This document shows positions 16,701 to 32,000 of a DNA stretch of 42,618 bases, in pieces. The stretch covers positions 1-42,618 of the forward strand of contig JBIJDH010000042.1 in NCBI GenBank assembly GCA_044344255.1, given 5' to 3'. Within the stretch, counting starts at the first letter, position 1; each line of letters starts with the position of its first letter. Source of the DNA: Myxococcota bacterium. Lineage in GTDB: Bacteria; Myxococcota_A; UBA796; UBA2385. The notes under the pieces are model-generated. The model saw only the letters and a program-made list of their open reading frames with translations, ran no database searches and was not told the origin of the DNA. The position numbers were made by a program, and so were the translations under genes.

Positions 16701-19684
16701 GCCATGCAGGTGCTCTTCGGCCCCCGGCGCACGGTCGTGCGGCGGCACTTCTGGCAGCGGTAGCGGCCGCGGTGCGGCAAGAGCGTGAGCCTGGCGCTGT
16801 CGATCTGGTACGCACCGGCGCCGCCCTTCAGTGGCTTGCCCCAGCCTTCGAGGGTCGATGGGACCAGCAGCTTGAGCGCCTGGAGCGCGGTCCAGAGCTC
16901 GCCGAGGCATGTCTCGAGGTCTGCCTCCGGCACCCCCCAGCCCGCCACGGCGTTCCAGACCTGAGTGGGCCGGGAGCCGACCCACTGGGTGACGCGCGCG
17001 GGGAGGTCATCGCTGTTGCGCGACAGCTTCGCGCCCTTCGGCCCACCTGCGAAGGTCGGGACGTAGCCGTACTGGACCTCTTTGTCTCCGCTGTTCCACA
17101 TCTTCTGGAAGAGCTTGGTCGGGTCGTGGAGGACGCGGATGCGCCGGAGGTGGTCGAGCAGAGCCGCGATCCCCTCAACCAGCGCTTCTGGCTGCACACC
17201 GAGGACGGGAGCCCACGTCTGAACGAAGGGCAAGGTCGGCGTGAGGCCGGCGTAGTCCACCCGAAGGCGGCCCCAGGGCTCGAGGCCGAGGCGCTGCTTG
17301 ACGCCCGTGGCCACCTCGCGGAGCACCTGGATGCGGAGGAAATACTTACGCTCTTCCCGGTGCTTGGTCCCGCTCTCGTCGAAGGGCACGACCTGCCAGA
17401 CCTCCGGGAGCAGGGCGCGCGAGAGCTCGGGGTCTGCTTCCATGAGCGCGTCGAGCCCGTGGACCACATCGCCGATGGAGGCGCCTGCCGCGGGGATCTG
17501 CTGCGAGAGGAAGGCGCGGAGGCGGAAGCGCCGCGCGTGGTCGCGCATCCAGCCGGCCTGGAAGGCTGCGTCCTGCCGGTTGTCCGCGAAGACGAGCAGC
17601 CTCGGCCTCTCGGAGAGGTGCATCATCGACTGCGCGAGGACGTGGACGTCGGAGACGCCGACCGCGCGCATCGGGCGCGCCGGCTCCCGGTATTTGCCGC
17701 CCCGCGGGCGCCGGCCCGGAGACTGGCAGGCGACGCAGGAGTGGAGCAGTCCCTCGTACTCCGGCTTGTGGCGCACCACCTGGACGTCCACGAAGCTGCG
17801 CTGTGCCTGGCAGGCACCGCAGGCCTCCGTTCGCCCCTCTTGGAGCCCGCCGCAGTGGCTGCAGGCGAACATCGGGTGGAGGCGGCGGTGCGCGTAGCCG
17901 TGGCCTGTGGGCGGGACGGGGTTGCCGTCCTCGTCTACATCGTCGCCCTCGTCGTCGTCCTCGTCTGGGCGCACCACGAGGCGGTCCACGAGGAGCGCGC
18001 GGTCTCCGTCCGTCTCTTGCCCTTGGTGCGGCCAGAACCGTGTCGAGCCGACCTTTTCGCCGCCCTCCGGGCCCTTGGAGCCCGCCTTGAGCACGAAGTC
18101 CTTCACCCAGCTCTCGTAGTAGTGCTGCCCGCAGGTGGTGCAGGTGATGACCGGGAACCTGCGGAAGCGCTCACCGAGCTCGGCCTCCGCCTCTTCTCCC
18201 GCGAGCCACAGCCTCGCGGCGGCGCCCGGGTTCGAGAAGGTCACGACGGCACCGCCCACGCCTCGGACGAAGCTGTGGGCCACGGGCCGGAGGAGGGGGT
18301 CATGGCCGCCTCGCCCGGTGGCCGCGCCCAGCGCCAGCCACGCCAGGATCTCTGCCTCCGGCACCGGGCGGCCGACCCGGAGGGTGAGCACAGGAGGGAG
18401 GTCGGCCAGGGCCCGTGGGGTCCGCAGCTCAAGGGCGAGCTGGTAGACCAGCTCGTTGCTCGCGAGCTGGCTCGTCAGCGCCGCCTGCCAGCCTGCGCGG
18501 GGGAGCCGCGCTCCCCCCAGGGCGAGGTGGCAGTCGGACACGGCGGCCGCCACCTCCTCGTCGGGGAGGTCCACCGCCTTCAGCAGGCGGGTGAGCACCT
18601 CGTGGACGTCGTCCGGCGGCCCGGCCGGCACGCTGCGGCGCTCATTCCAGCGCTGCTCGTCATAGGCCTCGCGGATGAGGGTGACCCGGGCCTCGTCCAC
18701 CCCGAAGAAGCGGCGGGCGAAGTCTTCGGCCGGCTTCGGGGAGCCGTCCGCGCTGGCCATGGTGGCGGAGGTGGCGACGTGCCGGACCTCGTCCGCAGAC
18801 TTGCCACAGAAGGTGCGCAAACGTCGAATGAGGCAGGCCGTCTCGGCGCCCTGGGCTCCGCGAAAGGTGTGGGCCTCGTCGAAGACGAGAAATTCCAACG
18901 GCGCATCGGCAAAGATGCCCACGTCCTTGCCGCGCGTGAGGAGCAGCTCGAGCTGCTTGACGTTGGTGAGGAGGATGCGCGGCTGGCCGCCCTCCTTGCG
19001 CATCGCCTTCCGGCTGGCCCGCTCTTCGGGGGGCAGGAGCGAGATGTCCAGCCCGGCCTCGCGGACCTGCTTCAGTCGCGCCTGGTAGTCGGCGTTCGAG
19101 GATCCGGCGGGCAACCGCTCGCCGCGCACCTGCGCCTCCTCCTCGGGCGTCTTGCCGACGTACATCCCGAAGGGGATGCCGCGACCGGCGAGGAGCCCGC
19201 GCAGGCGGTCGAGCTGGTCCTCGGCGAGCGCGTTCATCGGGTAGATCAGCACCGCAACGACGCCCGGGGGCGCGTTGTTCTCCTTCAGCTCCAGGCAGCG
19301 GCTGATGATCGGGTAGAGGAAGGCCTCGGTCTTGCCCGACCCGGTGCCTGTCGAGACGATGGTGGTGTCGCCGCGGTGGATGCCGCGGATGGCCTCGTCC
19401 TGGTGCGCGCGGACATGGGTGTGCTCCGCAGGGACGATCGCCTGCATGGCCGGATGGAAGACTCCGTCCGACACCAGCTTGGCGACGCTCGACCCCTGCT
19501 TGAACGGGCGAGAGAGGCTGATGAACGGACCCTTACGAAGCGGCGTGTCGCGAGAGCGGTCAAGGTGCAGGAGCGCACGGAGCTGCGCGTACAGGTCGGT
19601 GTCCGCGAGGGGGTAGGTCGTGAGCTGGTAGTGGAGGAAGTCCTCGACAACGCGCTCGGTGAAGGCGATGGGGTTCAGGGCCAA
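13748..19684 (-). CDS. Large DEAH-box helicase with DUF1998 (DrmA/DrmB- or DruE-like), DUF559-like nuclease and C-terminal S24 peptidase-like domain
   Basis: TTG start with GGAAGG SD. Helicase motifs HQDEAI, TGTGSGKT, YPMNALAEDQ, DEAH, SAT, TPTLELGVDIG, QRAGRAGRR. Several CxxC pairs. DUF1998 YDPMPGGSG..C...C..CL. Nuclease-like PDFFY..IYLDG..H. Peptidase-like IAAG..GDSM..TFKR. Confidence 0.92.
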   Translation of the reverse strand: MALNPIAFTERVVEDFLHYQLTTYPLADTDLYAQLRALLHLDRSRDTPLRKGPFISLSRPFKQGSSVAKLVSDGVFHPAMQAIVPAEHTHVRAHQDEAIRGIHRGDTTIVSTGTGSGKTEAFLYPIISRCLELKENNAPPGVVAVLIYPMNALAEDQLDRLRGLLAGRGIPFGMYVGKTPEEEAQVRGERLPAGSSNADYQARLKQVREAGLDISLLPPEERASRKAMRKEGGQPRILLTNVKQLELLLTRGKDVGIFADAPLEFLVFDEAHTFRGAQGAETACLIRRLRTFCGKSADEVRHVATSATMASADGSPKPAEDFARRFFGVDEARVTLIREAYDEQRWNERRSVPAGPPDDVHEVLTRLLKAVDLPDEEVAAAVSDCHLALGGARLPRAGWQAALTSQLASNELVYQLALELRTPRALADLPPVLTLRVGRPVPEAEILAWLALGAATGRGGHDPLLRPVAHSFVRGVGGAVVTFSNPGAAARLWLAGEEAEAELGERFRRFPVITCTTCGQHYYESWVKDFVLKAGSKGPEGGEKVGSTRFWPHQGQETDGDRALLVDRLVVRPDEDDDEGDDVDEDGNPVPPTGHGYAHRRLHPMFACSHCGGLQEGRTEACGACQAQRSFVDVQVVRHKPEYEGLLHSCVACQSPGRRPRGGKYREPARPMRAVGVSDVHVLAQSMMHLSERPRLLVFADNRQDAAFQAGWMRDHARRFRLRAFLSQQIPAAGASIGDVVHGLDALMEADPELSRALLPEVWQVVPFDESGTKHREERKYFLRIQVLREVATGVKQRLGLEPWGRLRVDYAGLTPTLPFVQTWAPVLGVQPEALVEGIAALLDHLRRIRVLHDPTKLFQKMWNSGDKEVQYGYVPTFAGGPKGAKLSRNSDDLPARVTQWVGSRPTQVWNAVAGWGVPEADLETCLGELWTALQALKLLVPSTLEGWGKPLKGGAGAYQIDSARLTLLPHRGRYRCQKCRRTTVRRGPKSTCMAWRCGGELRWELEDGDDFDLRLLDGDYKMLRVAEHSAQVPHANRERIENQFKSDSTLLNTLVCTPTLELGVDIGALDAVLMRNVPPTAANYWQRAGRAGRRHRMAVDVTYAQGTGFDQSYFREPLKLLAGQVEPPRFNLKNEVMIRKHVHAGVLTALLGVARRASEQARAAIDEVLRRCFPPTLRTYLFTPGGEVLDKVMDMSPLGAVIAAHQAAVMDEVLRSFTSTWPAEDAAAVAPERIARVVAEMPSSLATVLKRFKRRLDWALGELRRLSEIKLKKGDLDPEDKAHERRCEKVIQRLKGTYTRGRGSAQGGPEDSETMGALAREGFLPGYGLESGSIVGLAEPPRMTWGLDDFELPRAPTLALREYVPGNAIYANGFRFVPRRFQLTPEETLRFRVVVEQQVVQEVGTDAAAAPLAVQEIRAVPVCDVIMPSQSQISDEEEFRFQMPVATYGNDRGYHRGGTAWRWADLDVRFRRGVQLRMLNVGPRNEVKQQRLGFPLCLACGQSHSPFASKKSREEFEKLHWERCSHQVQPTGFYADVEVDVLDLHDVEDRTIGFSVVEAVRMGAARVLDMEVEDLQLLALGHIGEDRVDILLYDPMPGGSGLLEHLSERWEEVRTAALSLLDGCVSACEASCIDCLQTYRNRFYHEHLNRHKAAEVLRSATGPLVKTHDIPEHLPAVGGTGPQTHIEVRFKRFLSEAGLPAPICQHTISQGVGYGNTVPDFFYNGEDDEPGICIYLDGMAGHIHGNPEQAAKDNAIRAKLDSLGYEVITVRSFELDDKDAVVRAIARIAARLMGKEKQKELRKDTAWFDRALAAPAPSRSRTHLRLIRCEREVTGAVPIYDLRIAAGAFSEGQSPEAIGYGRVEGSAPRRGRFVAQVVGDSMDKVAPKGAWCLWQHLREPGVAAVVPGEDLVVRLPDGADAEMGRFTFKRLMEGERGRALRPVSSNPEHREIPLGDGDEIEAVARFLGVVELNEHNR

Positions 19685-19727: not shown

Positions 19728-21503
19728 TCATCGGGTCGGCCAGACAGCCAGGAACTCCCGCTCAAGCTTCTCCGTGCGGAGCCGGATCCTGTCCTCGGTC
19801 CAGCTCTTCTCCCCGGCCAGGAAGGGCCGGACGATGTCGTCGAGGGTGATGGCGAGCGTTCCGTAGGCCTGCATTCCCTTCTTGCGCCCCACTCCCAGAA
19901 CCTTCTTGTCGAAGGCGGAATGACTGAGCGAGGTGTTCAATCGCGCATTCAGCAAGGTCATGTTGCCCAGCCACCCCACCACCGCACTCCGGTGCCTCCG
20001 CGCGGCCGCGATGGCGTCGGGACGGTCGGTCGCGGTCGTCGGTGGCAGCGGCCAGTGCGCCTCCCACTTCTGCGGCATGACGTGTTCGAGCGTGTAGTTG
20101 AAGACCAACCCGACCTCGTCGTACCGTGAATCGGCCGAGCGGCGCGCCAATTCCAACCAGAACAGGACGATCCTGGCATCCTTGTTCGAGATGCGGCGCA
20201 GTCCGGCCGAGACCTCGGCGTCGCTCGTCTCGGCGGCCTTCTCAGCCACCCGCTCCGGGTGCTGGAGGAAATCCAGGACCAGCTTGTTCAGCGACTTGAT
20301 CTCACCCCCGGCGATCAAGCGACGTACCAGGAAACGCTCAAGCTCAGTCAGATCCCGGTCGGCGCTCGCACCATGATCGTAGAGGATGAACAATACATAC
20401 GGGTGCAAGGAGGATATCTGGTAGGCGTCGAGGATGTGGAGGAGACGCCGGGTTCGATCACCAAAGGTCATCGGGGTCGTCGAGTCGGTCACCCCGAAGT
20501 GTTTACGATAGGTCTGCGCGTAGGCACGCAGGAGCGACGCGAAGGCATGAACACCCTCCCGTGTGGAGAGCGCCTCGATCCGACCTTTGTAACAGGCCCC
20601 CAGATCCTGCATCGTGTGCTTCTCGGGGTCGTAGAAGCCCCGGATGACCGCGACCGCGTGGAGGAGGATCTCGAGGTTGTCGCGGACCAGGCGACCGACG
20701 GTCCGCTCCTGGTCCCAGAACGCGCGGGTATCTTCGTCTGTCAGGAAGACATTTCCCCAGGTCTCTGAATACAGGGAGATGGCGTCCTCTTCACCCATGA
20801 CCCGAATGGCCTGCTGGAACAGGGCGTTCTTGATGATGTCCGCGCTGCTCAGGCGGACCCCCGCGCTGTTGATCGTGTCGAAGATCTTCTGCTCGTCGTC
20901 CCCCGGGTCAAGGGTGATGAGCACCAGCATGCGGTTGCTTCCGTCCAGGAGGTGATTGAGCAAGGCGACGCGTTGCTCTTCGCGCCAACTGCTCAGCTCT
21001 TGCACGAACCATGCGTAAGCCTGGGTGATCAAGCTCTCCCCATGCGGCCCGGGCTGGTCGGGACTGAGAGCGGCTGCATTGTCGAGGAGTCCTCGGCGAA
21101 TAACCGCGTCGTAGGCCGGCCGATCCAGGCGCGAGTGCTGGATCCGCACCTTGTAGTCGCGGTCGAGCGGGCGCACCTTGTAGCACAGCGCCTGGCGGAT
21201 CGAATCGCGGGCCGCCTCCCTCGCGTCGGCGGCGAGGGTGTCGTAGAGCGCCTTGAGGAGGACGCTCAGGGTCGTGAGGCGCTGCTGTCCATCGATGACG
21301 AGGGCCGAAGAGTGGTCACCCACGGTGTGGCTCGCCCACTTGAAGATCACAGAGCCGAGGAAGTGGCTCCGCCGTGTGTCGCTCAGATCCCGCAGCAGGT
21401 CCTCCCAGTTCTCCTTGGTCCACACATAGCTGCGCTGGAAGAACGGAATCTCGACCTTCTGGGTCTGGCTCAAGAACATAAGGTCTTTGGCTTTGGCTTC
21501 CAC
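19728..21503 (-). CDS. gmrSD: GmrSD-family (DUF262 + DUF1524/HNH) modification-dependent restriction endonuclease
   Basis: IPFFQRSYVW, IDGQQRLTT and IFDTINSAG (DUF262); LEHVMPQ...GNMTLLNARLN (DUF1524 HNH). Confidence 0.9.
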   Translation of the reverse strand: MEAKAKDLMFLSQTQKVEIPFFQRSYVWTKENWEDLLRDLSDTRRSHFLGSVIFKWASHTVGDHSSALVIDGQQRLTTLSVLLKALYDTLAADAREAARDSIRQALCYKVRPLDRDYKVRIQHSRLDRPAYDAVIRRGLLDNAAALSPDQPGPHGESLITQAYAWFVQELSSWREEQRVALLNHLLDGSNRMLVLITLDPGDDEQKIFDTINSAGVRLSSADIIKNALFQQAIRVMGEEDAISLYSETWGNVFLTDEDTRAFWDQERTVGRLVRDNLEILLHAVAVIRGFYDPEKHTMQDLGACYKGRIEALSTREGVHAFASLLRAYAQTYRKHFGVTDSTTPMTFGDRTRRLLHILDAYQISSLHPYVLFILYDHGASADRDLTELERFLVRRLIAGGEIKSLNKLVLDFLQHPERVAEKAAETSDAEVSAGLRRISNKDARIVLFWLELARRSADSRYDEVGLVFNYTLEHVMPQKWEAHWPLPPTTATDRPDAIAAARRHRSAVVGWLGNMTLLNARLNTSLSHSAFDKKVLGVGRKKGMQAYGTLAITLDDIVRPFLAGEKSWTEDRIRLRTEKLEREFLAVWPTR

Positions 21504-21506
21504 TTG

Positions 21507-22220
21507 TCAGGCTCCATAAGAGGTTTCGTCGGGAGGGTGATGTACTGCGGGCGAGAGCTCGTTCCTGACCAGCCCCCCACGGGACCAGTGAGCGTCGATG
21601 GCCTGCGTGAATTCGGCCCGGACCAACTTGCCGCGGGCCTCGGTCCAGCCCGCGTCTTCGGTGCGGACGACCAGGCCCTCCATGGGCCCACCCCCGACTC
21701 GTGAAGAGCCCAGAAGTCCCCGTAGGGCGGGGAGGTCGAAGCGACCGGCGGCGAGCCGCGGCACGGGGTGCAGCTCGAGCGCGGCGAGTAGCGCGTCGCG
21801 TCGGGCCGTTTCCCAGAACCGACCCTCGGCGCGGTCGTAGACGTCGAAGCCCAAGAACCAGTCCGGCAGGCGGTCGTAGCGAATGCTGTGCATCGCGTGG
21901 CACCACTCGCCGAAGAGCATCAGGTCGGGCCACAGCGCGTCGACGAGGGCGTCGTGGTGCCTCGCGAGCCAGTCCCAAAGCGGCTTGAACTGCGGGTGCG
22001 CTGTCTCCCTGGCGAGGTAGCTCCCGCGGTTCTGAGCTCGCAACTCGCCGTCCTCGCTGACCGAGAGGCCCAGGTTCGCTCCATCCACCTTCTCTTCCAC
22101 CACGAGCGGTTGGGCCAGCATCTCCGTGACCTCGGCCGGGGCCAGCACCTTGTCGCCCCGTGGAGCACCGGCCCCGAGCCAGGCGAGGTGCGGGGTGTGG
22201 GGGAAGCGGAAGAAGTCCAT
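21507..22220 (-). CDS. ATP-dependent RNA ligase family nucleotidyltransferase
   Basis: ATG at 22220 in a TGATG overlap. FFRFPHTPHL, motif I EEKVDGAN, LFGEW, FLGFDVYD, EGLVVR, GKLVRAEF. Confidence 0.88.
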   Translation of the reverse strand: MDFFRFPHTPHLAWLGAGAPRGDKVLAPAEVTEMLAQPLVVEEKVDGANLGLSVSEDGELRAQNRGSYLARETAHPQFKPLWDWLARHHDALVDALWPDLMLFGEWCHAMHSIRYDRLPDWFLGFDVYDRAEGRFWETARRDALLAALELHPVPRLAAGRFDLPALRGLLGSSRVGGGPMEGLVVRTEDAGWTEARGKLVRAEFTQAIDAHWSRGGLVRNELSPAVHHPPDETSYGA

Positions 22221-22711
22221 CAGCGCGCCGCGTGGGTGGCGCGCAGCCATGCGTCCAGCAGTTGTTCGACGTGGATGCCCACGGCGGCACATCCATCGGC
22301 GACGTCAAGCCAGTCGGAGTCCGCACAGTTAACGATCGTAGTGGGACCTGGGGCGGCGAGAGCGGCGGCAGCGAATTTCCGATCGGAGTAATCGAGGGTG
22401 TCGAGATCCGCCGGGACAACCCCATGCCCATTCTGGTCTGTCTCGATCTCGACCCACTCGGCATCCGCCATCCGCTCGTGGATGATCTGGAGCCCGAGGT
22501 CCTGATCACCGAGCTTGTTCCGGTATTCGTTGTAGATCTCCATCGTCATGTCAAGGACGAGCTTTCTCGATTTGTCCGACTTGAATGCGACCAGCCAGTT
22601 TAGAACAGTCTCGCGGTGTTCAGGCGGCACGTGCGAGTCAGAGAACGGCGAAAAGGGATGAGCGGCCGAGGCGACCAGGAGCACGTTTGTGTCGATGACG
22701 TGATCAGGCAT
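22220..22711 (-). CDS. PIN-domain protein (putative RNase)
   Basis: N-terminal VIDTNVL, central EY, and DYSDRKF...DSDW supply the acidic PIN residues. Overlaps the upstream ATPase stop. Confidence 0.75.
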   Translation of the reverse strand: MPDHVIDTNVLLVASAAHPFSPFSDSHVPPEHRETVLNWLVAFKSDKSRKLVLDMTMEIYNEYRNKLGDQDLGLQIIHERMADAEWVEIETDQNGHGVVPADLDTLDYSDRKFAAAALAAPGPTTIVNCADSDWLDVADGCAAVGIHVEQLLDAWLRATHAAR

Positions 22712-24008
22712 TGGTCGGCCCTCCAGTACCCTTACCCTCCGACTTCATTCGTTCAATCATGGCCCGCATCTGTCGTTCGGTTTCACCGATGGCGTCGCCG
22801 AAGAAGTGTTTGGGCCAGTTCCTGATTCGGCCGAACCTGTCCATTTCCAGATGCCGGACGATGGCGGCGCCCGCCTCGTCGCGGTCGATGAAGTAGAGGC
22901 GAACGTGTTTGCCATCGACGGTCCCGTTCGCCACGAGGAGCTGGAGCCGCCGAAACAGGTGCTCCGAATGCGTCTCGATGAGGAATTGGGAACCTCGCTC
23001 TCGCGAGGCATTCACGAACAGGTCGGCGAGGTTTGCCTGAGCCAGTGGATGGAGGTGCATTTCCGGCTCTTCCAAGATCGCGGTGTTGGCCCGAGGGAGG
23101 AAATATGCCAGCGTGACCACAGGGAGCACCTGGGATACCCCAAATCCGACATCAAGTATGTTTGAAGTTACTCCTCCGCGACTGACAAGAACCTCGTGGA
23201 GAGGCGAGTTCCCGATCTGGTGCACTTCCAGCGAATCTAAGAGACCGATCTCGCGCATCCAACTGCTTACCTTTGCGACCAGATTGTCCTGATCGTTCTT
23301 TGTTGCGCTGGCAAGCAGCGCCTGAACGGCAAGCCGGCCGTCGTGTCCGAGGTTTCCGGGACGCTGTTGATTCCACTGTTCGAAACGCTTCGGCGGAGCA
23401 CGCAACGGACCGAGATAAGTGAGGGCACGAACTTGCCTTGCGACTATATTTGTAGCGTCGCTCAACGCCCGCTGAGTTGAGCCGACCGCAACCATCGCTT
23501 CGGGGGGAAGGAAAAGCGAACGCTGCGGCTCGAACGCTCGCGTTGACCGATCTCGTCCTTCGGGCGCCCCCGGCCAGTCGATCGTGTACCCACCCCGGCG
23601 CTGGCGTGTGACGGTCCACATGTCACTGGCCCCGCGCGTGATGCGGAGGGACTCGACCACGATGCGCTTATCAGTGTTCAACCTGTACAACACCTCCGCT
23701 GACGCATCAGCACCTCCGCGATGGACTGCGAGCGCGATGCCGAGCGACGCAGCATGATCGTGTAGGTGCACCGTGTCCTGGAACGTTCCGAGATGAAGCC
23801 CATCCGCCTCGGTGTTGCCGAGGTTCAGCTCCATTTCGGGATCGGAAGAAGCGACGGTCTGCTGCCAGAGTCTGAGGGGCTGCAGTAGGCTCGACTTCCC
23901 AGCCGAGTTCACGCCGAGAAAGAGGGTGATGGGCGCGAGCTCGATGCCAGTCTCCCAGAGCTGTTCGCCCCAGGCCTTGAAGTTTTTTATACGGAGCTTG
24001 GTAAACAT
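22704..24008 (-). CDS. ABC-type ATPase (AAA_15/AAA_21) with DUF3696-like C-terminus
   Basis: IKNFKA, Walker A GVNSAGKSS, signature DVGFGVSQ, Walker B LEEPEMHLHP, ETHSE, C-terminal WPKHFF. Confidence 0.9.
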   Translation of the reverse strand: MFTKLRIKNFKAWGEQLWETGIELAPITLFLGVNSAGKSSLLQPLRLWQQTVASSDPEMELNLGNTEADGLHLGTFQDTVHLHDHAASLGIALAVHRGGADASAEVLYRLNTDKRIVVESLRITRGASDMWTVTRQRRGGYTIDWPGAPEGRDRSTRAFEPQRSLFLPPEAMVAVGSTQRALSDATNIVARQVRALTYLGPLRAPPKRFEQWNQQRPGNLGHDGRLAVQALLASATKNDQDNLVAKVSSWMREIGLLDSLEVHQIGNSPLHEVLVSRGGVTSNILDVGFGVSQVLPVVTLAYFLPRANTAILEEPEMHLHPLAQANLADLFVNASRERGSQFLIETHSEHLFRRLQLLVANGTVDGKHVRLYFIDRDEAGAAIVRHLEMDRFGRIRNWPKHFFGDAIGETERQMRAMIERMKSEGKGTGGPTNA

Positions 24009-24015: not shown

Positions 24016-24363
24016 TCCTATCTGGGGCGGATGAGAAGAGGGGGCCGAGGTCGCGGGCGGGAGGAGCAACAGTGGGTGCCGGAGGCGGAGGTGCGGCGAC
24101 GGTGCCCCCTCCCCGATCACCTTCGCATACCGCTCGCACTCCGTCTATGAGTCCTCCTGGGTCTGCGCGAGCTGCTCGTCGAGGAAGCGTTCGCCCGTCG
24201 GGCTTACAATGGGCTGCGGGGTGCGGGCGTGCTGGTCGTAGACGCCGTCATCTACGGAGCGGGTGACGACGCGGTGGGTGTCGGCGAGCGGGTAGACGTT
24301 GGGCGGGTCGAGGCAGAGCTCCACGAAGGCACGCCCGGTGAAGGCGATCGGGCTCAGATCCAC
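24016..24363 (-). repeat. Junction 2: degenerate chimera of the helicase 5' end and the MTase 3' end
   Basis: Translates as VDLSPIAFTGRAFVELCLDPPNVYPLADT-HRVV-TRSVDDGVYDQHARTPQPIVSPTGERFLDEQLAQTQEDS*. About 80% nt identity to the MTase end over a 91-nt block (hand count), with a W codon mutated to a stop. Confidence 0.85.
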
Positions 24364-25085
24364 GTCGTCACCCCATGTCTCTGGACCAGCGTCACGATGT
24401 TGGCGCCCAACACCGCGGGGCCTGCCGGGAGCTGGGACACCGCGACGAGCCACACGAGCACGGCGCCAAAGGGATGCTCGCAGGCGGCCGCGCGGATCTC
24501 CGCGGCCCACGCCGCGTCGGTTGGAGCGACACGATCGTAGAGATAGAGCGCCGCGATCAGGTCGATGAGGGCCTGACGGCGACCATGCGGGAGTCGCCGC
24601 GGCACCGTGTCGTCGTTCAGCTTGAACACTCGGATGGACTCGGCACCCTTTGGGCCGATCGGCGCGAACTCTCCCGTTTGTGAAACAAAGAGGAGGTGCG
24701 CGGAGGGGTCGTCCACCGATGGGTCGAGGAGGAGCGGCTGCCCGGTGGCGTCCACCGGAAATTCGTTTCGTTTGAGGTTGCTGTTGCAGTGGCTGCAAGC
24801 AAGCAGGTAGTTGGGCCACGAGAAGGCACGGCCGGGGTAGGTCGCCTTTGGCCAGAAGTGGTCGATGTCGGTGCCGAGGCTGTCTTCGCAGTACATGCAA
24901 CGCGCGCGGCCATGTGCCATCTGCCAAAGCGCCGAGCGGACCTCATCGAAGGCGGCCTCCGGCTTGGACTCCCAGCGGCTCTTCGCCTTCGCCTTCGGAT
25001 CGGTCGCACCGACGACCTGTTGGGTGATATTGGCGAGCGTGTCCAGGGTCGGCTGCGTCAATGCGGTTCGTTGAACGCTCCGCAT
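24354..25085 (-). CDS. ptuB: HNH endonuclease, Septu/retron PtuB-like
   Basis: RCMYCE..IDHFWPK..WPNYLLACSHCN..K..F, LLLDPSVDDP. TGATG-coupled to the upstream ATPase. Confidence 0.82.
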   Translation of the reverse strand: MRSVQRTALTQPTLDTLANITQQVVGATDPKAKAKSRWESKPEAAFDEVRSALWQMAHGRARCMYCEDSLGTDIDHFWPKATYPGRAFSWPNYLLACSHCNSNLKRNEFPVDATGQPLLLDPSVDDPSAHLLFVSQTGEFAPIGPKGAESIRVFKLNDDTVPRRLPHGRRQALIDLIAALYLYDRVAPTDAAWAAEIRAAACEHPFGAVLVWLVAVSQLPAGPAVLGANIVTLVQRHGVTTWI

Positions 25086-26407
25086 CAGGTGCCCACCACC
25101 AGCTCACGGAGCCGGCGGTCGGCGAGCTCGCCAAGGTCGGTCGGGAGCTGCGTCTTCATCTCCTGGTAGCGGACGACCTCGGCGGGGGAGGCTGTCCCGA
25201 GGAGGGCCTTCACCTCCAAGGCGGCCACCTCTGCTCGGAGGCGCTCCGAGCGGGCGGAGTGGGCGTGTTCCAGGCCGAAGAGCTCCGTGAGGACGGCGTC
25301 GTCGGCGCCCCCGTTCACAACGGCCTTGAAGAGGTCATCGGGTACGTGCTCCATCCTTCGATCTTCGCCCGGCGCGGGGAGGCGGATCAGGCCCCGGGGG
25401 CTGGCAGCCTGGCAGATGTAAGGGCTGTGGGTCGTCACGAGGAACTGGATGGCGGGGAAATGGGCGGTCAGCCAGGGGCCGATGCCCTGCTGCCAAGCGA
25501 CGTGCATGTGCGCATCGACCTCGTCAATGAGGACCACGCCCGGGAGCCGGCAGATCGTCCGGTTCGGCTCGCCTTCGAGGCCCAGTCTACCAAAGGTGTC
25601 CTGGAGGCGACGGATCAGGTCGACGACCAACGCCGTGACGGTCCGGTAGCCGTCGCTGACCTGCTCCAAGGGCATCTTCACCCCGTCCCGCTCGATCCAG
25701 AGGCCCTCGGAGTCCACCCCCCGCACGGAGCTTCCGTCGGGCAGCAGCCCGTCGTTGAGGACGCGGATCACGTCGTCTCGCAGCTCGGCCGCGCCGGGGC
25801 GCTCCTCGAGCGCGCGAAGGTGGATCCCCTTCAACCAGTCGACCGCGTCGGAAAGGGTTGCCGACTCGTTGAAGAGGTTGATGAGGCGGGCCATCACCGG
25901 GTCTGCCGAGAGCTTCACCACCTCAGTGGGTGGCGCGCCCAGGTGCCGGTAGGGCCCGTAGCCGGCGATGAACCATCCCATGGGCGCGTCGGCCCATGGG
26001 CCGTTGGCGCCCGACCTTGTGGCTTCGATCTTCTTGTCTTCCCAACGCGCCAATACGTCGGTGGCGTGCGGGGTCGCCTTCCACGTGAGGCCCACCCAGA
26101 AGGGATTGTTGGTCGGCCGACCGGCCTTGAACTGGTCATGGGACTGGTCACGCACCATGCGCGCTCGAAACACCGCATGTTCGGCGCCACGACAAACCCA
26201 GTCGGTGAAGACCCCGGCGAGGGAACGAGACGCGAGTGGCCCGATGGTGGCCAGGGCCAGCGCCTTCAGGAGGGTGCTCTTTCCAGCGCCGTTGCGCCCG
26301 GCGAACACAGTCCAGCCGGGGTAGGTGCCGTCGCCGCGGTCGAGGTCGATCGAATGTTCCCCTCGAAGGCTGCGCAGATTGGACGCTACGATTTCGGTGA
26401 TGTACAC
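25085..26407 (-). CDS. ptuA: ABC-type ATPase, Septu/retron PtuA-like
   Basis: GRNGAGKST, AGYGPYR, QVSDGY, VVLIDEVDAHMH..WQ, FPAIQFLVTTHSP. Confidence 0.85.
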   Translation of the reverse strand: MYITEIVASNLRSLRGEHSIDLDRGDGTYPGWTVFAGRNGAGKSTLLKALALATIGPLASRSLAGVFTDWVCRGAEHAVFRARMVRDQSHDQFKAGRPTNNPFWVGLTWKATPHATDVLARWEDKKIEATRSGANGPWADAPMGWFIAGYGPYRHLGAPPTEVVKLSADPVMARLINLFNESATLSDAVDWLKGIHLRALEERPGAAELRDDVIRVLNDGLLPDGSSVRGVDSEGLWIERDGVKMPLEQVSDGYRTVTALVVDLIRRLQDTFGRLGLEGEPNRTICRLPGVVLIDEVDAHMHVAWQQGIGPWLTAHFPAIQFLVTTHSPYICQAASPRGLIRLPAPGEDRRMEHVPDDLFKAVVNGGADDAVLTELFGLEHAHSARSERLRAEVAALEVKALLGTASPAEVVRYQEMKTQLPTDLGELADRRLRELVVGT

Positions 26408-26419: not shown

Positions 26420-26799
26420 ACGTAGGCCCTAACGCGGGCGGAACAGGGGGCTGAGGTCGCGGGCGGGAGGTAGCGGCAAGGGGGGCCGGAGGCGGAAGGG
26501 TTGGCCCCGGCACCCGCTCCACTATCGCCCTCGAATGCCGCTCGCACTCCGCCCACGACTCCTCCGGGGTCTGCGCGAGCTGCCAGTCGAGGAGGCGCTC
26601 GCCCATCGCCCCGGCGACGGGGTGCGGGGTGCGGGGTGCGGGGTGCGGGGTGCGGGGTGCGGGTGCGGTGGTCGTAGACGCCGACATCGACGGAGCGGGT
26701 GAGGCCGAGGTCGCTTCCAGCGTTCGGGTAGGTGTTCAGCCGGTATCGGAGGAAGTCCTCGATGACCCGCTCGGTGAAGGCGATGGGGTTCAGGGCCAT
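26420..26799 (-). repeat. Junction 1: chimera of the helicase 5' end and the MTase 3' end
   Basis: 26768-26798 is identical to 19653-19683 (31 bp, helicase start). 26671-26712 is identical to 29285-29326 (42 bp, MTase). 26535-26625 differs from 29177-29267 at about 4 of 91 nt. Confidence 0.95.
26619..26666 (+). repeat. Heptanucleotide tandem repeat (GGGGTGC)x6 plus a partial unit
   Basis: Read directly. The homologous sites in the MTase (GGGCTGC GGGGAGC) and in junction 2 have only two imperfect units. Confidence 0.95.
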
Positions 26800-26802
26800 G
26801 AA

Positions 26803-27636
26803 CTACTCTCCGTCCGTGTCGGGACCGAGGCGCAAGACGGTCAGCAGGCGGGCGAGCCCGGACTTCGGCCAGAGGCGCCGCAGGCGGGCCACTCGTTCCG
26901 GGATCGGAGTGTCCGCCAGTGTCGCGGACGGCAATCGCAAGCCTCGCGCGGCCGAGTGCGCGTCTTCCAGTAAGGCCAAGAGCTCCACTGCAGTCAGCAG
27001 GGAGCGCCGACTACCTCCAGCCCATTCCACCGGTGTCACTGAGCCCGCTGGGACCGGATCCGAGCACCACGAGGCCGGTCCGTCAGGTTTCTGGAAGGCG
27101 ATAAAGTGGCGTCCGGAGGCAAACTTCGGCGCATTTCGGATGTCGATTAGCCGCAGCCGCCCCAAATCCGGGGCATGCCAGACCTCATCAACCGAGAACA
27201 TCATGCCGCAGGCGTAGTAGACCTGCGCAGAAGGAATCGTTGCGAGCCTTAGGAGAAGGTCATGTTGGCTGAACAACGCGTTCTTACTCTTCTGGAGGCG
27301 GATCTCAGAGCGGAAGTATGGACGAGTAAACCCCTTGGGCAACAGACGGCTCCGACGGAGCATCTTGTCGACGGTCTTGAACTGGAGAAAGTAGGCTATG
27401 TAGATCTTCGGTTGTACACCAGAGAAGGACGCGAAGGACTCGATCTCAGCGAGGAGGTCCACTGTTGCAGGATCCGCGTGCACCCAGCCCTGATCGAAAC
27501 CCAGGAATGCCTCTTTGCCTGGGGCAGGTTTGAGCATCCGAACCGTCTTCGTCCCATGACGCTGAAGCATGAGATTCACGATTGCCGGATGAAAGTGCAT
27601 CTCCAGCAGGGTTTCGATGACGGGTTCCGGTTTCAT
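26803..27636 (-). CDS. Hypothetical protein, possible PD-(D/E)XK-type nuclease
   Basis: ATGA-coupled to the HEPN gene. EAFLGFD...YFLQFK resembles a D..QxK variant active site. Confidence 0.65.
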   Translation of the reverse strand: MKPEPVIETLLEMHFHPAIVNLMLQRHGTKTVRMLKPAPGKEAFLGFDQGWVHADPATVDLLAEIESFASFSGVQPKIYIAYFLQFKTVDKMLRRSRLLPKGFTRPYFRSEIRLQKSKNALFSQHDLLLRLATIPSAQVYYACGMMFSVDEVWHAPDLGRLRLIDIRNAPKFASGRHFIAFQKPDGPASWCSDPVPAGSVTPVEWAGGSRRSLLTAVELLALLEDAHSAARGLRLPSATLADTPIPERVARLRRLWPKSGLARLLTVLRLGPDTDGE

Positions 27637-29054
27637 GTTCGCCCCACGGGGCCATCATCGGGGACCCGAGCGTCGTCCGCGCCGACTTCGATCCACTTGT
27701 CAGGGCCTACGGCTTGCCCCGCGTCGATCGCGCTCGCCAGAAAGTCGACCAGTTTGCCCCAGCGTGTGACGTCGAAGTCAGCGGTCTTGGTCTTGCGCGC
27801 GCGCAGCGCGGCGAAGAGGACATCTTCAGCGAGGGAACGGGCTGCGGTGGCGACTTTTGGTTCGGGACTACGCCCCTCATGTACATATTTGCTACGGGCG
27901 TCGTAGACCGCCTTCGTAGCGGCGAACTCCACCGGCACTGTTGTGCCCCGACCCCGGTGCACAAGCAGCGCTACCCGCGTGGCTACCGTGCCGCCGATCC
28001 GCTCCGTCCCGCCCAAAAGTAGGTCGAGAGCGATGACGTAGTGCAAGAAACCCTCGGCACGGCGGCCTGCCGCCTCGTGCCTGCGCGCCTTCGCAATGAA
28101 CCTCAGAAACGAGGCGATCGACCGGTCCAGGGCAACCGACGGACGCCACGGATCAAATCCGAACTCGCGCGAGAGTCGTGCAAACGCCGCCATCATCGGT
28201 CTGTCGTGCTGCCGAACATCGATGGTCGGCCCTTCGTGCAGAGACGGTGCGACCAGGCCCAGCTTGTGCCGTCCGATACCTCGGATGTAGGAGATAGTCC
28301 GGCGCCCGTCGATGGTCCGTATCGCCTCGTCATCAAAGAAAGGCGTCCCGAGAGCGATTGCCGGATCCTGGACCTCCTCAAAGGCGTCCCAAAATCCAGC
28401 GAACAAAGCGTCGGACACAACGTGAAAGTAGTTCTCGATCAAGCCGTACACCAGCGAGACTCGAGGATCGCGATCCCGGAGGACGCCCTCGCTGAACTCG
28501 GCAGCGGGTAGGAACGGAACCGACACCGGCCCGCGCTCGATGACGAATTTCCCCTTCAGTTCGCCAGCGTACCGGGGGAAGAAGTCAGCGCGGTCCTGTT
28601 CTGACCACATCAAGAGCCGCGGTAGATCGATCTCACCGATGAAGAACTCGCGCATCCTGAGATCGAAGCCTGTGCGTGCTTGACCGGGGAATACGAAAAG
28701 CTGCGTGACCGCGGCGGGTGCGATCTGCTCGAGCCACTCGTTCAACACACGGACCCGGTTTCCCGAAGGATGAAGCGCGAGCAGCAGGCCCAGCACTGCG
28801 TAAACGACTTCGTTCCCGGATTCGTGCCCACGACGCCGCAGCTCATCTGCGACGCGACGTACGAACGCCTCGAAGCTGACAGGTTTGGTGTCTGAGTACC
28901 TGATGCGGAGCGCGGTGGCGACAGCCTTCCGCCCGTTCTCATCAACGAACGTATATTCGCCGCGGACTACAATCGAGGGCTCGTGAAGCTGGTCTGTAAG
29001 CGCGGCCCCGTCGAGGACTCGCCTGAAGTCGTCAGAGACCGGGATGGGCGGCAT
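27633..29054 (-). CDS. ApeA-like HEPN-domain protein (putative RNase)
   Basis: C-terminal FLHYVIALDLLL...ATRVALL...VYDARSKYVHEG carries the RxxxxH HEPN motif. Confidence 0.8.
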   Translation of the reverse strand: MPPIPVSDDFRRVLDGAALTDQLHEPSIVVRGEYTFVDENGRKAVATALRIRYSDTKPVSFEAFVRRVADELRRRGHESGNEVVYAVLGLLLALHPSGNRVRVLNEWLEQIAPAAVTQLFVFPGQARTGFDLRMREFFIGEIDLPRLLMWSEQDRADFFPRYAGELKGKFVIERGPVSVPFLPAAEFSEGVLRDRDPRVSLVYGLIENYFHVVSDALFAGFWDAFEEVQDPAIALGTPFFDDEAIRTIDGRRTISYIRGIGRHKLGLVAPSLHEGPTIDVRQHDRPMMAAFARLSREFGFDPWRPSVALDRSIASFLRFIAKARRHEAAGRRAEGFLHYVIALDLLLGGTERIGGTVATRVALLVHRGRGTTVPVEFAATKAVYDARSKYVHEGRSPEPKVATAARSLAEDVLFAALRARKTKTADFDVTRWGKLVDFLASAIDAGQAVGPDKWIEVGADDARVPDDGPVGRT

Positions 29055-29056
29055 TC

Positions 29057-32000
29057 CTACCTCCGAGTCCTGAAGAGTGGGCCCAGGTCACGGGCTGCGG
29101 CGGGAGCTGGGGCCGGCGTAGAAGCGACCGCAGGCGAGGGAGCCGGCACCGCCGTCCCCTCCAAGATCGCCTTCGCATGCCGCTCGCACTCCGCCCACGA
29201 CTCCTCCGGGGTCTGTGCGAGCTGCCAGTCGAGGAAGCGCTCGCCCATCGCTCCGGCGACGGGCTGCGGGGAGCGGGCGCGGTCGTCGTAGACGCCGACA
29301 TCGACGGAGCGGGTGAGGCCGAGGTCCGCGAGGCAGAGGGCCTCGGGGAGCATCCATCCATCGCCCGCGTGCTGGTCGCAGAAGGCCTGGATGCCCGCAT
29401 CCCGCCCGCCGGCGGCGGCGATGGCGCGCTGCAGATCGTCGAAGGCGACCAGCGAGAGGACGGTGTGGCGCAGCTCGGGGGGCTGGGCCTTGTCTACGCG
29501 CCAGAAGCCCTTGGGGTCGAGGGTGCGGCAGAAGCCCTTCTCGGCGAGGCGGGCGGTGGGGTGGTCGCAGTCGCGGAGGATCCAGGCGAAATCGTCGCGG
29601 TCGAGGCCGTAGAGGGTGGCGACGATGGCGTCGAGCATACAGCGGAGGCGGAGGCGCTCGTGGGGCGTCAGTGCAAACCGAACCTGCTCAGTTGGCGACC
29701 GGTTCAGCCACCATCCCGCAAAAAGTGGATGCGTGCAGTTGAGCGCCAACACACCGCGGTCAAGGCCGGGAACGGTTAGCAAGTCGTGGGGAATTGGGGC
29801 CTGCGAAAGATAGTACCGACTCACGTGTTGCCCCGTGAGATTCGAACGCACAGAGTAGTCGAAGACGAATGAGTTCATGGAGGCACAAAGCCGAAGGTGT
29901 GCCTCAACCGAATCCGCCGCAGCGATGACTACGGCGTTGTTCACTGAATGCCCTGTTGGAACTGCTGGAAGGCAGCTGGCGATCACTGTCCGCGTATTGG
30001 TTGCCCCCGTTACGTCCATCACTGCGACTTTGGGACCGAGAAAGCACTTGGCCGAGCCCATGAATGTGTCGCGTGGAACGTAGTATTGGGCTCCTGTTTC
30101 AGACGTAGCGCCGGGCGGAAGGACACCCCACCGCGCGGCCCGCCCCTTTCCTGACTCCCAGCGTGCGCAGAACGCTTGGTACTGGTCAATACTTCGCCCT
30201 TCGACGAGCGGAAGGAATATGTCCTCCCCCTTGGTAAGTAGACCATTAGACGCACAGTAGGTGCCAGCGTGTTCCAGGTCCGACCTGTGTTCAAACTGGC
30301 TTCGATCATCCTTCATGTTGAATTCGCGGGAAAACTGAATGCCGAAATCGCCATGCCCATCTCCACCGAACCGGCCGTTCTCAAGGGAAAGCCGGGTGAG
30401 TACACGAAGGGCGACGGGATTGGGCAAGAGCGGAAGCCCGTAGGTCGTTCCAGATACCGTTTCGATCAGAGTTCTGGAAACAAGCATGTGGCTCGGGCGC
30501 GCCTCGGACCACCGTTCCAAGTCGCTGACCATCGCGGCGCATCGCACATCCACGGTGACGGATCCGCGTGCTGCGATCACTGCAGAGAACCTGCTGGATC
30601 GGTGAATCGGGAACAGTTCGTCCTGGTTGGTGAAGTCGAACATCCACTCCCACGAGCATTCCTGCAGTAAGTACCTTCGGATCTCGTCTCCGCCCTTCTC
30701 GGAAGCAAGAATTGTCGGAACTATGACCCCAATCCGGCCTCGGGGATGGAGAATCGAGACAGCAACCTCCATGAACGCCCGGTAGGTGTACAGTTTCCCC
30801 CCACCTTGCCGGACGAACGGTCGCTTTGACTGTTTATTGGTGGAACCTACGTTCTTGACCCAGTTCGTCATTGTTCGTACGCGATCGTTCTCCGCCAGCC
30901 AGCGGGTCTCCACATCCGATTCGGCAGCCATAAGCTCCAGGCGGCGCGTCTCAGCACGGGCTGGATCGTACCCGCGGTACAGGGCGTCCTCGTTAGAGAA
31001 GAACTCCAATGCCTGTACCGTCACCGTTTCCCAGGGCGGGTTCCCCACCACCGCGTCAAACCCAGCCCCCTCCACGGTGAACACGTCGGGGAACTCCAGC
31101 TCCCAATGGAAGAAGCGAAGCCGATCCCGAACCGCCTTCGCCACCCCCTTCGCTGCCTCGCTGGGTGCATGGAGGTCGCGCGGCCCGGGCACGTCGGCGA
31201 TCCGGTCCAATGGCCAGAACCAGAGCGCGCACCAAGTGTCGAAGGCCGTCCGCACCAGAGTCAGCGCTGGGTCCGTCTGGATGCGCTCGCGCCAGATCCG
31301 CGCCCGCTCGTGCGGCATCCCCGCCGGCACCGCCCGGAGCTCGCGGTACAGCCGGCGCACCCGCGCCACCGCGGTCTTCAGCTCTTCGTCCGAGGTCCCC
31401 CCCGGGAACAGCCGCGCCTGGCTGCTCAACAGCGCGGCCTGCTCCGCGATCACCACCGTGCGGCGAGCCTTCAACGCGTCGTGCCAGGTGTCGGCTGCGT
31501 GGTGGACGCCCTTCCACTTCTTGTCGGGGCTCTCGCGGTCGAAGGCGAGCAGCGGGTAGTCGCGGAAGCGGTCGAGCCACGTTCCGATGAGCGCGTTTCC
31601 GCAGCGCAGCTTGTGGTCCAGAAAGGTGAAGGGCAGCCGCTTGTCGAGGGTCTCCACCCAGAGGGCCACGCGGCCCAGCTCAACGGCGAGGGGGTCGACG
31701 TCTACCCCATAGAGGCAGTGCTCCACGACGGCGCGGCGGGCCAGGGCGTCGAGCCGCTCGTCCATGGCGCCGGACGCGGAGGAGGCGGGGATGCGGCGGT
31801 CGCCCTCGGGGAACGCGTCGCAGCGGATGGTGGTGCCGCCGTTCTCTGAGGACAGGCGCCCATGGACATGCAGCGACTCGACCAGGGCGGCGGTGAGGGT
31901 GCGCAGGGCCGCCACGAGGAAGCTGCCAGAGCCCATCGCAGGGTCACAGACCTTGAGCGCGAGGAGCTCCTCGGGGCGGCGGAGGGTGCGGGCCGCGTCC

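What the first reader, a model, noticed from the sequence alone, without database searches (positions are those of the whole stretch)
19600..29340. Polar, integron-like array of defence cassettes delimited by chimeric [helicase 5' end | MTase 3' end] junctions
Seen: the interval between the MTase and the DEAH helicase holds three cargo blocks separated by two non-coding chimeras (26420-26799 and 24016-24363). Each chimera is ~90 bp of helicase start (MALNPIAFTERV..TYP) fused to ~250-290 bp of MTase end (..TRSVDVGVYD..QLAQTPEESW..), running to the stop/RBS region. Both fuse in the same register: YPNAGS-DL-GL-TRSV and YPLADT-HR-VV-TRSV, against native helicase YPLADT-DL and native MTase CLA-DL-GLTRSV. 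The native genes share GACCT at the crossover and a nearby 10-mer GTCCGCGAGG (19601-19610 and 29324-29333). The MTase-proximal junction is ~95% identical to the MTase end; the distal one is ~80% with a stop. Inference: units of [MTase end - cargo - helicase start] circularise at a fixed crossover and integrate at the MTase end. This would restore both core genes, give the cargo an RBS and operon transcription, and push older cassettes distally. I know of no description of such a mechanism for DISARM-like loci.
Basis: partly seen in the sequence, partly recalled or inferred. Interest (0 to 1): 0.92.

Follow-up and report, generated by a model that had tools for sequence, protein, structure and literature searches.

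The report
Stacked defence cassettes with recombination scars
Three sets of anti-phage genes sit stacked inside one larger defence operon, separated by two decayed scars made of the neighbouring genes' ends, and these scars record how and in what order the sets were slotted in.

Summary
All genes lie on the minus strand. A DISARM-like core (SNF2/DrmD, 1575-aa methyltransferase, 1978-aa DruE-like helicase) encloses three cargo blocks: an unknown two-gene module, Septu, and HEC-03 plus GmrSD. Two pseudogene scars separate them. Each scar is about 90 nt of helicase start fused in frame to about 270 nt of methyltransferase end, at the same register.

The slot between methyltransferase and helicase is a family-wide cargo site. 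Of 47 loci with both gene ends, 37 carry 0.8-9.4 kb of varied defence genes.

The integron-like reading is only partly supported.
- **Supported:** polar, stepwise addition at the methyltransferase side. The distal scar is about four times more decayed, the scars share almost no derived sites, and the family-typical cargo lies next to the helicase.
- **Not supported:** a dedicated site-specific mechanism. The window's serine recombinases have no close homologue in any of 67 related loci. No attC-like structure is present. Scars in other lineages break at other positions and are not chimeras.

Best reading: recombination anchored in the conserved gene ends, closed by a short-homology joint. Embedding itself is published; these scars were not found in print in my searches.

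The parts
33781..37212 (-). SNF2 helicase, DrmD-like (core gene 1)
   Evidence: PADLOC DrmD E 3.2e-184. Pfam SNF2-rel_dom and Helicase_C. Conserved upstream of the MTase in most related loci.
29057..33784 (-). 1575-aa N6 methyltransferase, type IIG/DrmMI-like (core gene 2). Built as conserved N-terminal two thirds, a variable ~1.6-kb block, and a conserved ~0.6-kb tail.
   Evidence: PADLOC REase_MTase_IIG E 0 and DrmMI 4.5e-120. Pfam Eco57I and N6_Mtase. Residues 1-985 are 71-73% identical to relatives and 986-1574 are 46-47%. Sliding nucleotide identity.
29057..29326 (-). Native MTase tail: the ~270 nt from codons D-L (GACCT) to the stop that recur in both scars
27633..29054 (-). Cargo A gene 1 (473 aa), unknown family. 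Weak lead only: ApeA-like HEPN.
   Evidence: No Pfam or PADLOC hit. Atlas feature scores 0.87-0.89 to HEPN_Apea clusters, below the 0.9 bar.
26803..27636 (-). Cargo A gene 2 (277 aa), unknown family
   Evidence: No Pfam or PADLOC hit. 37% identical over 197 aa to a gene in the same slot of L018. Atlas lead DUF6615 at 0.85.
26429..26799 (-). Scar J1: helicase head (26710-26799) fused in frame to MTase tail (26429-26709). Frameshifted by a 28-nt expansion of a 7-nt repeat at 26618-26668.
25085..26407 (-). Cargo B: Septu PtuA (ABC ATPase)
   Evidence: PADLOC PtuA E 1.1e-145. Pfam AAA_21 and AAA_15.
24354..25085 (-). Cargo B: Septu PtuB (HNH). Its stop codon lies 10 nt inside the helicase-head part of J2.
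   Evidence: PADLOC PtuB E 4.8e-63. Coordinates.
24018..24363 (-). Scar J2: helicase head (24274-24363) fused to MTase tail (24018-24273). Nonsense TAG at 24145-24147. The more decayed of the two.
19728..24008 (-). Cargo C: HEC-03B ABC ATPase/DUF3696 (22704-24008), HEC-03A (22220-22711), RNA ligase (21507-22292), GmrSD/HEC-06-like type IV nuclease (19728-21503)
   Evidence: PADLOC HEC-03B 2.8e-80, HEC-03A 4.7e-10, Orf5/HEC-06 about 1e-43 to 1e-45. Pfam RNA_ligase 1.5e-32, GmrSD_N and GmrSD_C. Homologues of the trio occupy the same slot in 14-20 related loci.
13748..19684 (-). 1978-aa DEAD/DEAH helicase with MZB (DUF1998) domain, DruE-like or fused DrmA/DrmB (core gene 3). Its first 90 nt (19595-19684) are the native head.
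   Evidence: PADLOC DruE 1.9e-105, DrmA 1.3e-18. Pfam DEAD, Helicase_C, MZB. The first 90 nt are the best-conserved part of the gene, at 92-93% against L009 and L013.

Best explanation
This is a DISARM-like operon (SNF2, methyltransferase, helicase). The gap between the methyltransferase stop and the helicase start is a cargo slot used across many phyla. The methyltransferase's last ~0.6 kb and the helicase's first ~0.1 kb are conserved islands flanking variable DNA, so they act as homology arms.

In this lineage two cassettes were added one after the other at the methyltransferase side rather than swapped in. Septu came first, then the unknown two-gene module. Each incoming piece carried its own methyltransferase tail, its cargo, and the first ~90 nt of its donor's helicase.

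One side recombined by homology within the methyltransferase or its tail. The other side closed by a short-homology joint between the helicase head and the resident tail, at the codons D-L (GACCT), next to a shared 10-mer. This restored an intact methyltransferase and pushed the old tail downstream as a scar.

The joint is in frame. When new, each scar could be read from the helicase start codon to the methyltransferase stop, which may have kept the downstream cassette translationally coupled. Both scars have since decayed.

What is shown: the anatomy, the order of events, the mosaic tail, and the family-wide slot. What is inferred: the recombination route, and that no dedicated enzyme is needed.
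For: **Slot and arms**
- Of 47 loci with both gene ends, 10 have a gap under 170 nt and 37 carry 0.8-9.4 kb.
- Cargo is diverse: HEC-03, NsnABC, HEC-01, DarTG, AbiE, PDC-S02, PDC-S19, PDC-S68, GmrSD, TIR.
- Sliding identity shows a conserved MTase tail (77-94%) after a ~1.6-kb block at 37-60%. The helicase's first 90 nt are its best-conserved part.

**Order of events**
- Derived sites against 11-13 clade natives: J1 has 7 (head) + 4 (tail), J2 has 18 + 20, and they share 1 + 0.
- J2 has lost invariant tryptophans.
- The HEC-03 trio, present in the slot of 14-20 loci, lies next to the helicase.

**Homologous exchange in the tail**
- Native tail against J1 is 152/163 identical over the first five 40-column blocks of the alignment, then 58/100.
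- J1 against J2 in that last part is 75/98.
- The three tails are each other's closest relatives among 67 loci, except that L006 outscores both scars against the native tail.

**Short-homology joint**
- Shared GACCT plus the 10-mer CCTCGCGGAC.
- The window has the longest head/tail exact run (10 nt) of 44 loci, where the median is 5.5.

**Scars of displaced gene ends elsewhere, at other breakpoints**
- L022, L025 and L065.

**No recombinase linkage**
-.
Against: - Two independent illegitimate joints at the same register in both partners is improbable if breakpoints are random. A rough estimate is (13/400)^2, about 1e-3. So a site preference or a shared origin must be assumed.
- The 5-nt GACCT is weak homology, and the 10-mer lies 6 nt off register in the helicase.
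- J1's derived head sites cluster in the 17 nt before the joint (7 of 8). This is unexplained.
- No donor locus and no second head|tail chimera was found. There were 0 among 67 loci from one genome per species, and 0 related among 11 pattern hits in metagenome contigs.
- Recombination itself was not observed.
Confidence: 0.5

Rival explanations
1. Units of [MTase tail - cargo - helicase head] circularise and integrate by a dedicated site-specific recombinase at a fixed crossover in the MTase tail, giving a polar, integron-like array. The enzyme could be the adjacent serine recombinases or one acting in trans.
For: - Both scars join at the same register in both partner genes.
- The joints are in frame.
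- The age gradient is polar.
- J1's head is native-like over its first ~73 nt, so it came from a recently functional helicase gene. That implies a second, independent joint.
- Two large serine recombinases lie 3.5 kb upstream.
Against: - The two recombinases have no close homologue in any of 67 related loci; the only hit is 24.6% identical over 346 aa in L010.
- No integrase lies in any cargo block.
- No common inverted repeat or hairpin is present at the four sites.
- The LAD-region DNA is no more alike between head and tail than the shared codons explain: median exact run 5.5 nt over 44 loci.
- Scars in L022, L025 and L065 have other breakpoints and are not chimeras.
- The tail mosaic points to homologous exchange.
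Confidence: 0.15
2. One head|tail joint arose once, either by tandem duplication of the tail-to-head interval at the short repeat or in an ancestral donor array. It was then copied by unequal crossing-over, or carried in with donor arrays by ordinary homologous recombination, with later cargo replacement between the arms. On this reading the identical register is inherited, not recurrent.
For: - It explains the identical register without any special enzyme.
- All three tails belong to one sub-lineage.
- A donor fragment ending in a scar's tail could add a cassette by double homologous crossover alone (inference).
- The 10-nt direct repeat in head and tail is the longest of 44 loci.
Against: - J1 and J2 share 1/90 and 0/171 derived sites, no more than chance (expected about 0.6 and 0.2).
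- Their decay is unequal, 11 against 38 derived sites, so they had no common period as pseudogenes.
- J1's head lacks J2's changes.
- No array with this joint was found elsewhere.
Confidence: 0.2
3. Assembly artefact. Strain variants of a single-cargo locus were concatenated by the metagenome assembler.
For: - The window is a whole 42.6-kb contig of an 83-contig draft.
- Relatives are mostly fragmented assemblies.
Against: - Head and tail share at most a 10-nt exact match, so no assembler k-mer can join them.
- Copies share at most 42 nt exactly and are 71-94% alike.
- The scars carry their own decay: a nonsense codon, a repeat expansion, and clustered changes.
- 11 other runs hold at least half of the stretch's sampled words, one of them 0.94.
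Confidence: 0.03

Closest known systems
[quoted passage not shown] I read sections 5 and 11 and ran a term search of the text.
   Same: - Co-oriented defence cassettes are nested between the genes of a larger defence operon.
- The same cargo families occur here: Septu, HEC-03, and HEC-06/GmrSD-like.
- DISARM is named as a host operon for embedded genes.
   Different: The preprint catalogues embedded genes and offers a 'genomic sink' idea. The word 'recombination' occurs 0 times in its text, and pseudogene-bearing loci were filtered out. Here, scars made of the host genes' own ends give a mechanism and an order of acquisition, and three cassettes are stacked in one slot.
Homology-facilitated illegitimate recombination in naturally transformable bacteria
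   Same: - Foreign DNA is added, not swapped.
- One end is anchored by homology.
- The other end is joined at a few bases of GC-rich microhomology.
   Different: That process is known from laboratory transformation assays. Here it is only inferred from sequence. Here the same joint was used twice, and the added DNA regenerates the interrupted gene.
Integron cassette arrays
   Same: Promoterless, co-oriented cassettes are added at one end of an array, so order reflects age.
   Different: There is no IntI tyrosine recombinase, no attI, and no attC hairpins. Here the boundaries are fragments of the two flanking genes.
Genomic islands and prophages that integrate into a gene's 3' end and carry a replacement end (tRNA or tmRNA type; recalled)
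   Same: The target gene is restored by a copy carried on the incoming DNA. The displaced original end is left as a direct repeat. Repeated insertions give tandem arrays.
   Different: Those elements encode their own integrase and have a defined att core. The cassettes here encode none. The scars also include a piece of the downstream gene.
   Same: Leftovers of the flanking genes' ends mark the boundaries of embedded cassettes.
   Different: It concerns a different host operon. It is an AI note that I did not check. From the lines shown, no chimeric head|tail joint is reported.

Membership tests
Integron | IntI-type tyrosine recombinase next to the array | tested here: not met
   Pfam on 22 ORFs of the window found only two large serine recombinases (Resolvase + Recombinase + Zn_ribbon_recom). 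No tyrosine integrase was found.
Integron | attC-type imperfect inverted repeats at each cassette boundary | tested here: not met
   The inverted-repeat scan of the four junction regions found no shared structure. Only weak 10-15-nt pairs appeared, at unrelated places.
Integron | Polar array, newest cassette next to the insertion site | tested here: met
   J1 (proximal) has 11 derived sites and J2 (distal) has 38, of 261. This is a likeness in behaviour, not membership.
DISARM class 1 | DrmD SNF2 helicase and DrmMI N6 methyltransferase | tested here: met
   DrmD E 3.2e-184. DrmMI E 4.5e-120, although the best MTase model is REase_MTase_IIG at E 0.
DISARM class 1 | DrmA helicase plus DrmB (DUF1998) | tested here: inconclusive
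   A single 1978-aa protein carries DEAD, Helicase_C and MZB/DUF1998. It scores best as DruE (1.9e-105) and only 1.3e-18 as DrmA.
DISARM class 1 | DrmC phospholipase-D nuclease | tested here: not met
   No PLD-family hit among the 22 ORFs scanned. Not found with these queries.
Embedded defence cassettes (Payne et al.) | Known or candidate defence genes nested between, and co-oriented with, the genes of a host defence operon | tested here: met
   PtuA/PtuB, HEC-03A/B and a GmrSD-like gene all lie on the minus strand between the MTase and the helicase. The same slot is filled in 37 of 47 loci.
Homology-facilitated illegitimate recombination | Microhomology of a few bases at the non-homologous joint | tested here: met
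   GACCT is shared at the joint. A 10-nt match lies adjacent.
Homology-facilitated illegitimate recombination | RecA-dependent homologous anchor on the other side | not testable with these tools
   Only indirect evidence is available: the mosaic identity profile of the tails and of the MTase.
Integrase-borne genomic island in a gene's 3' end | Element-encoded integrase and a defined att core repeated at both ends | tested here: not met
   No recombinase lies in the cargo. The repeats are 270-nt and 90-nt gene fragments of 71-94% identity.

The most novel reading that the evidence does not exclude
DISARM-like operons of this clade act as a true cassette platform. A recombinase acting in trans, or a property of the core proteins themselves, cuts and joins at the paired L-A-D/D-L sites in the methyltransferase tail and the helicase head. 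This releases [tail-cargo-head] circles and inserts them in frame at the methyltransferase end. The result would be a second, integron-independent way for bacteria to stack and reorder promoterless defence cassettes.
Probability: 0.12. Interest if true: 0.9.

Novelty: new variant of a known kind. Interest (0 to 1): 0.55.

Why it matters
Embedding of defence systems inside other defence operons is documented, but how the genes get there is open. These scars show three things. The host operon's own gene ends travel with the cargo. Cassettes can be added as well as swapped. The order of acquisition can be read from scar decay.

That turns the 'genomic sink' idea into a testable recombination model: recA dependence, crossover distribution, and the role of short homology. 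It also suggests a simple search rule for finding more such platforms, and new defence genes such as the unknown cargo A: a displaced gene end lying next to co-oriented cargo.

Tried and rejected
- **Junction pattern in metagenome contigs.** The scan gave 11 stretches. None encodes a helicase head, an MTase tail or any core gene. The pattern matches J1 but not J2, so this is a narrow negative.
- **Viral contigs.** Searching with the tail alignment gave 46 pattern matches and 0 relatives.
- **Plasmids.** There was 1 hit, a Synechocystis plasmid with a fragmented locus and a small PIN-gene cargo, and no scar.
- **Laying reads.** Junction support from reads, and any cassette-loss variants, therefore remain unseen.
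- **The 10-mer as the crossover.** Rejected. It lies flush with the joint in the MTase but 6 nt upstream of it in the helicase. Across 44 loci, head and tail DNA around the L-A-D codons is no more alike than the shared codons explain.
- **Template for J1's divergent 12 nt before the joint.** No source was found in the genome.
- **attC-like hairpins.** None found.
- **Promoter and terminator scan of the array.** 0 promoter-like sites, and 7 terminator-like sites against 5.4 expected. Uninformative.
- **Earlier scan notes by sequence.** Nothing found.
- **Same taxonomic order.** Of 154 genomes, only the window's own genome holds more than one tail copy.


Full report
**Anatomy**

The window is a whole 42.6-kb contig of an 83-contig, 8.18-Mb draft genome. 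Records that carry the closest related loci are mostly labelled Myxococcota or 'proteobacterium'. All relevant genes lie on the minus strand. In reading order they are:

1. An SNF2 helicase, 33781-37212 (PADLOC DrmD E 3.2e-184).
2. A 1575-aa methyltransferase (MTase), 29057-33784 (type IIG model E 0; DrmMI 4.5e-120).
3. Cargo A, two genes of 473 and 277 aa with no Pfam or PADLOC family.
4. Scar J1.
5. Cargo B, Septu PtuA and PtuB (E 1.1e-145 and 4.8e-63).
6. Scar J2.
7. Cargo C: HEC-03B, HEC-03A, an RNA ligase and a GmrSD-like nuclease.
8. A 1978-aa DEAD helicase with an MZB/DUF1998 domain, 13748-19684 (DruE 1.9e-105; DrmA 1.3e-18).

No PLD-type DrmC was found among the 22 ORFs scanned. I therefore call the core DISARM-like, not DISARM.

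There are no other copies in the genome.
- Each scar reads from a helicase-type start codon through about 29 helicase codons, then D-L (H-R in J2), then the MTase tail from G-L-T-R-S-V to the tail's own stop.
- J1 is 160/171 identical to the native tail in the conserved part. J2 is 140/171.
- J1 is knocked out of the MTase frame by a 28-nt expansion of a 7-nt repeat. J2 carries a TAG and has lost both invariant tryptophans.
- An artefact is unlikely. Head and tail share no exact match longer than 10 nt, and no two copies share more than 42 nt.
- 11 other sequencing runs hold at least half of the stretch's sampled words, one of them 0.94. I could not lay reads.

**The slot is a family feature**

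A scan of one genome per species returned 67 related loci from many phyla, including two archaeal groups. Of 47 loci where both the MTase end and the helicase start are on the contig, counting the window:

- 10 have the genes 28-162 nt apart.
- 37 hold 0.8-9.4 kb between them. The window's 9.4 kb is the longest.

I scanned 80 of the 100 cargo ORFs found in 36 loci. I left out most of the shortest ORFs (mostly those under about 110 aa) by hand. The cargo is highly varied: the HEC-03 trio, NsnABC, HEC-01, DarTG, AbiE, PDC-S02, PDC-S19, PDC-S68, GmrSD-like and a TIR pair.

Homologues of the window's HEC-03 trio occupy the slot in 14-20 loci. Septu was found in none. Cargo A gene 2 has one homologue, in L018.

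In 7 loci the last cargo gene ends 10 nt inside the helicase gene (coordinates), just as PtuB ends 10 nt inside J2. In the helicase heads I read a TGA spans codons 3-4 at that spot. So a short piece of helicase head is functionally part of such cassettes.

Sliding identity against three relatives shows alternating conserved and variable segments:

- The MTase is conserved up to about 1.9 kb from its end.
- A ~1.6-kb block follows at 37-60% identity.
- The last ~0.6 kb is conserved at 77-94%.
- The helicase's first 90 nt are its best-conserved part.

The tail and the head are thus natural homology arms.

**Order and independence of the two events**

I compared the scars with 11-13 native sequences of the clade.

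| Scar | Derived head sites (of 90) | Derived tail sites (of 171) |
|---|---|---|
| J1 only | 7 | 4 |
| J2 only | 18 | 20 |
| Shared by J1 and J2 | 1 | 0 |

The shared counts are no more than chance.

- The scars therefore had no common history as pseudogenes.
- J2 is the older, and J1's head came from a helicase gene that was functional until recently.
- With HEC-03 next to the helicase, this supports stepwise addition at the MTase side: C first, then B, then A.

**Homologous exchange is visible**

- Native tail against J1 is 152/163 identical over the first five 40-column blocks of the alignment and 58/100 after that.
- In that last part J1 resembles J2 (75/98).
- This is the pattern expected if the last event crossed over inside the tail.
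- The three tails are closer to each other than to any of the other loci, apart from L006 (83.7% to the native tail, which outscores both scars).

**What does not fit an integron-like machine**

- The two serine recombinases upstream have no close homologue in any of the 67 loci. The only hit is 24.6% identical, in L010.
- No recombinase lies in any cargo.
- No common inverted repeat marks the four sites.
- Across 44 loci the DNA around the shared L-A-D codons of head and tail matches no better than the codons require. The median exact run is 5.5 nt.
- Other lineages do carry scars, but with other breakpoints and not as chimeras:
  - L022 has the last 104 nt of its MTase repeated (89%) after an inserted PDC-S02 gene, and about 30 nt of helicase head repeated before another inserted gene.
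  - L025 and L065 have 361 nt of helicase head repeated (95-97%), continuing after an internal deletion.
- G014 and L051 look like decayed remnants of whole loci.

**What remains unexplained**

- Two independent joints at the same register are unlikely by chance, about 1e-3 on a crude estimate.
- The window has the longest head/tail exact match of the 44 loci, at 10 nt. With the following C-T it forms a 12-nt match interrupted by 6 nt of helicase sequence (read). A short-homology hot spot is therefore plausible but unproven.
- J1's derived head sites are crowded into the 17 nt before the joint (7 of 8). I found no template for them.

**Literature**

- Payne et al. (bioRxiv 10.1101/2024.01.29.577857; sections 5 and 11 read, plus a term search) describe embedding in Hma, BREX, DISARM and type I R-M operons. 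They leave the cause open, and 'recombination' occurs 0 times in the text.
- Four full-text searches listed no paper on junction scars of embedded cassettes. I saw only search listings and abstract openings for papers other than that preprint.
- Its supplements, and those of other preprints, are closed and could bear on this claim.
- An earlier, unchecked note of this scan reports similar gene-end leftovers in a type I R-M operon.
- Homology-facilitated illegitimate recombination, and islands that restore a gene's 3' end, are recalled from memory and were not read here.

**Verdict**

This is a real and unusually legible stack of embedded defence cassettes. It is best explained by recombination anchored in conserved gene ends plus a recurrent short-homology joint. 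A dedicated cassette recombinase is not excluded, but nothing found here argues for one.

Noticed in passing
window 29057-33784: The methyltransferase is a mosaic. Residues 1-985 are 71-73% identical to two relatives, but 986-1574 are only 46-47%. A ~1.6-kb block shows 37-60% nucleotide identity, and GC dips to 58% at 30001-31000. This looks like a swapped specificity module flanked by conserved DNA.
   Followed up: partly
window 1115, 12479, 19057, 19601, 29324, 33674, 38161: The 10-mer GTCCGCGAGG, or its complement, occurs 7 times in the window. Dinucleotide shuffles predict 0.5, and the genome-wide rate of 160 copies in 8.18 Mb predicts 0.8. Cause unknown; codon bias was not excluded.
   Followed up: partly
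window 26618-26668: A 7-nt repeat (CGGGGTG on the plus strand) has 7.4 copies in scar J1. The native tail lacks the extra 28 nt, four repeat units. This is slippage in a stretch no longer under selection.
   Followed up: yes
window 8815-13685: Downstream of the helicase lie a 526-aa AAA+ ATPase (IetA-like, E 3e-24) and a 1141-aa SF1 helicase (MkoA-like, E 1.3e-72). They may form a further defence module. Neither was found in any of the 67 related loci.
   Followed up: partly
window 37291-40978: Two large serine recombinase ORFs converge and overlap by about 420 nt as listed. In the first, the resolvase domain begins only at residue 114, so its true start is probably further in. They may belong to an element that carries the whole island.
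   Followed up: no
window 13748-14200 (helicase C-terminus): There is a weak Peptidase_S24-like match at residues 1839-1966 of the helicase. At E 5.6e-4 it falls below Pfam's cut-off.
   Followed up: no
L002/L046 (G025:C47), MTase end to 17157 in L002: The methyltransferase reading frame runs on without a stop into the HEC-03B-type ABC ATPase, giving an open frame of 2144 aa. This is either a natural MTase-cargo fusion or a sequencing error.
   Followed up: no
L005 (G014:C668) and L051: These are decayed remnants of the locus. A short SNF2 fragment lies next to an MTase-tail fragment. In L005 that is followed by frameshifted HEC-03 genes and a frameshifted helicase head at the contig end.
   Followed up: partly
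L084 (Synechocystis sp. B12 plasmid CP101713.1, 16134-40469): This is a plasmid-borne copy of the locus, split into many annotated ORFs and interrupted by IS elements. A 74-aa gene and a PIN-domain gene sit in the MTase-helicase slot.
   Followed up: no
L024 and L027 (one alphaproteobacterial chromosome): The same genome holds two copies of the core operon. One has 1.7 kb of cargo in the slot and the other has none, with a 39-nt gap.
   Followed up: no
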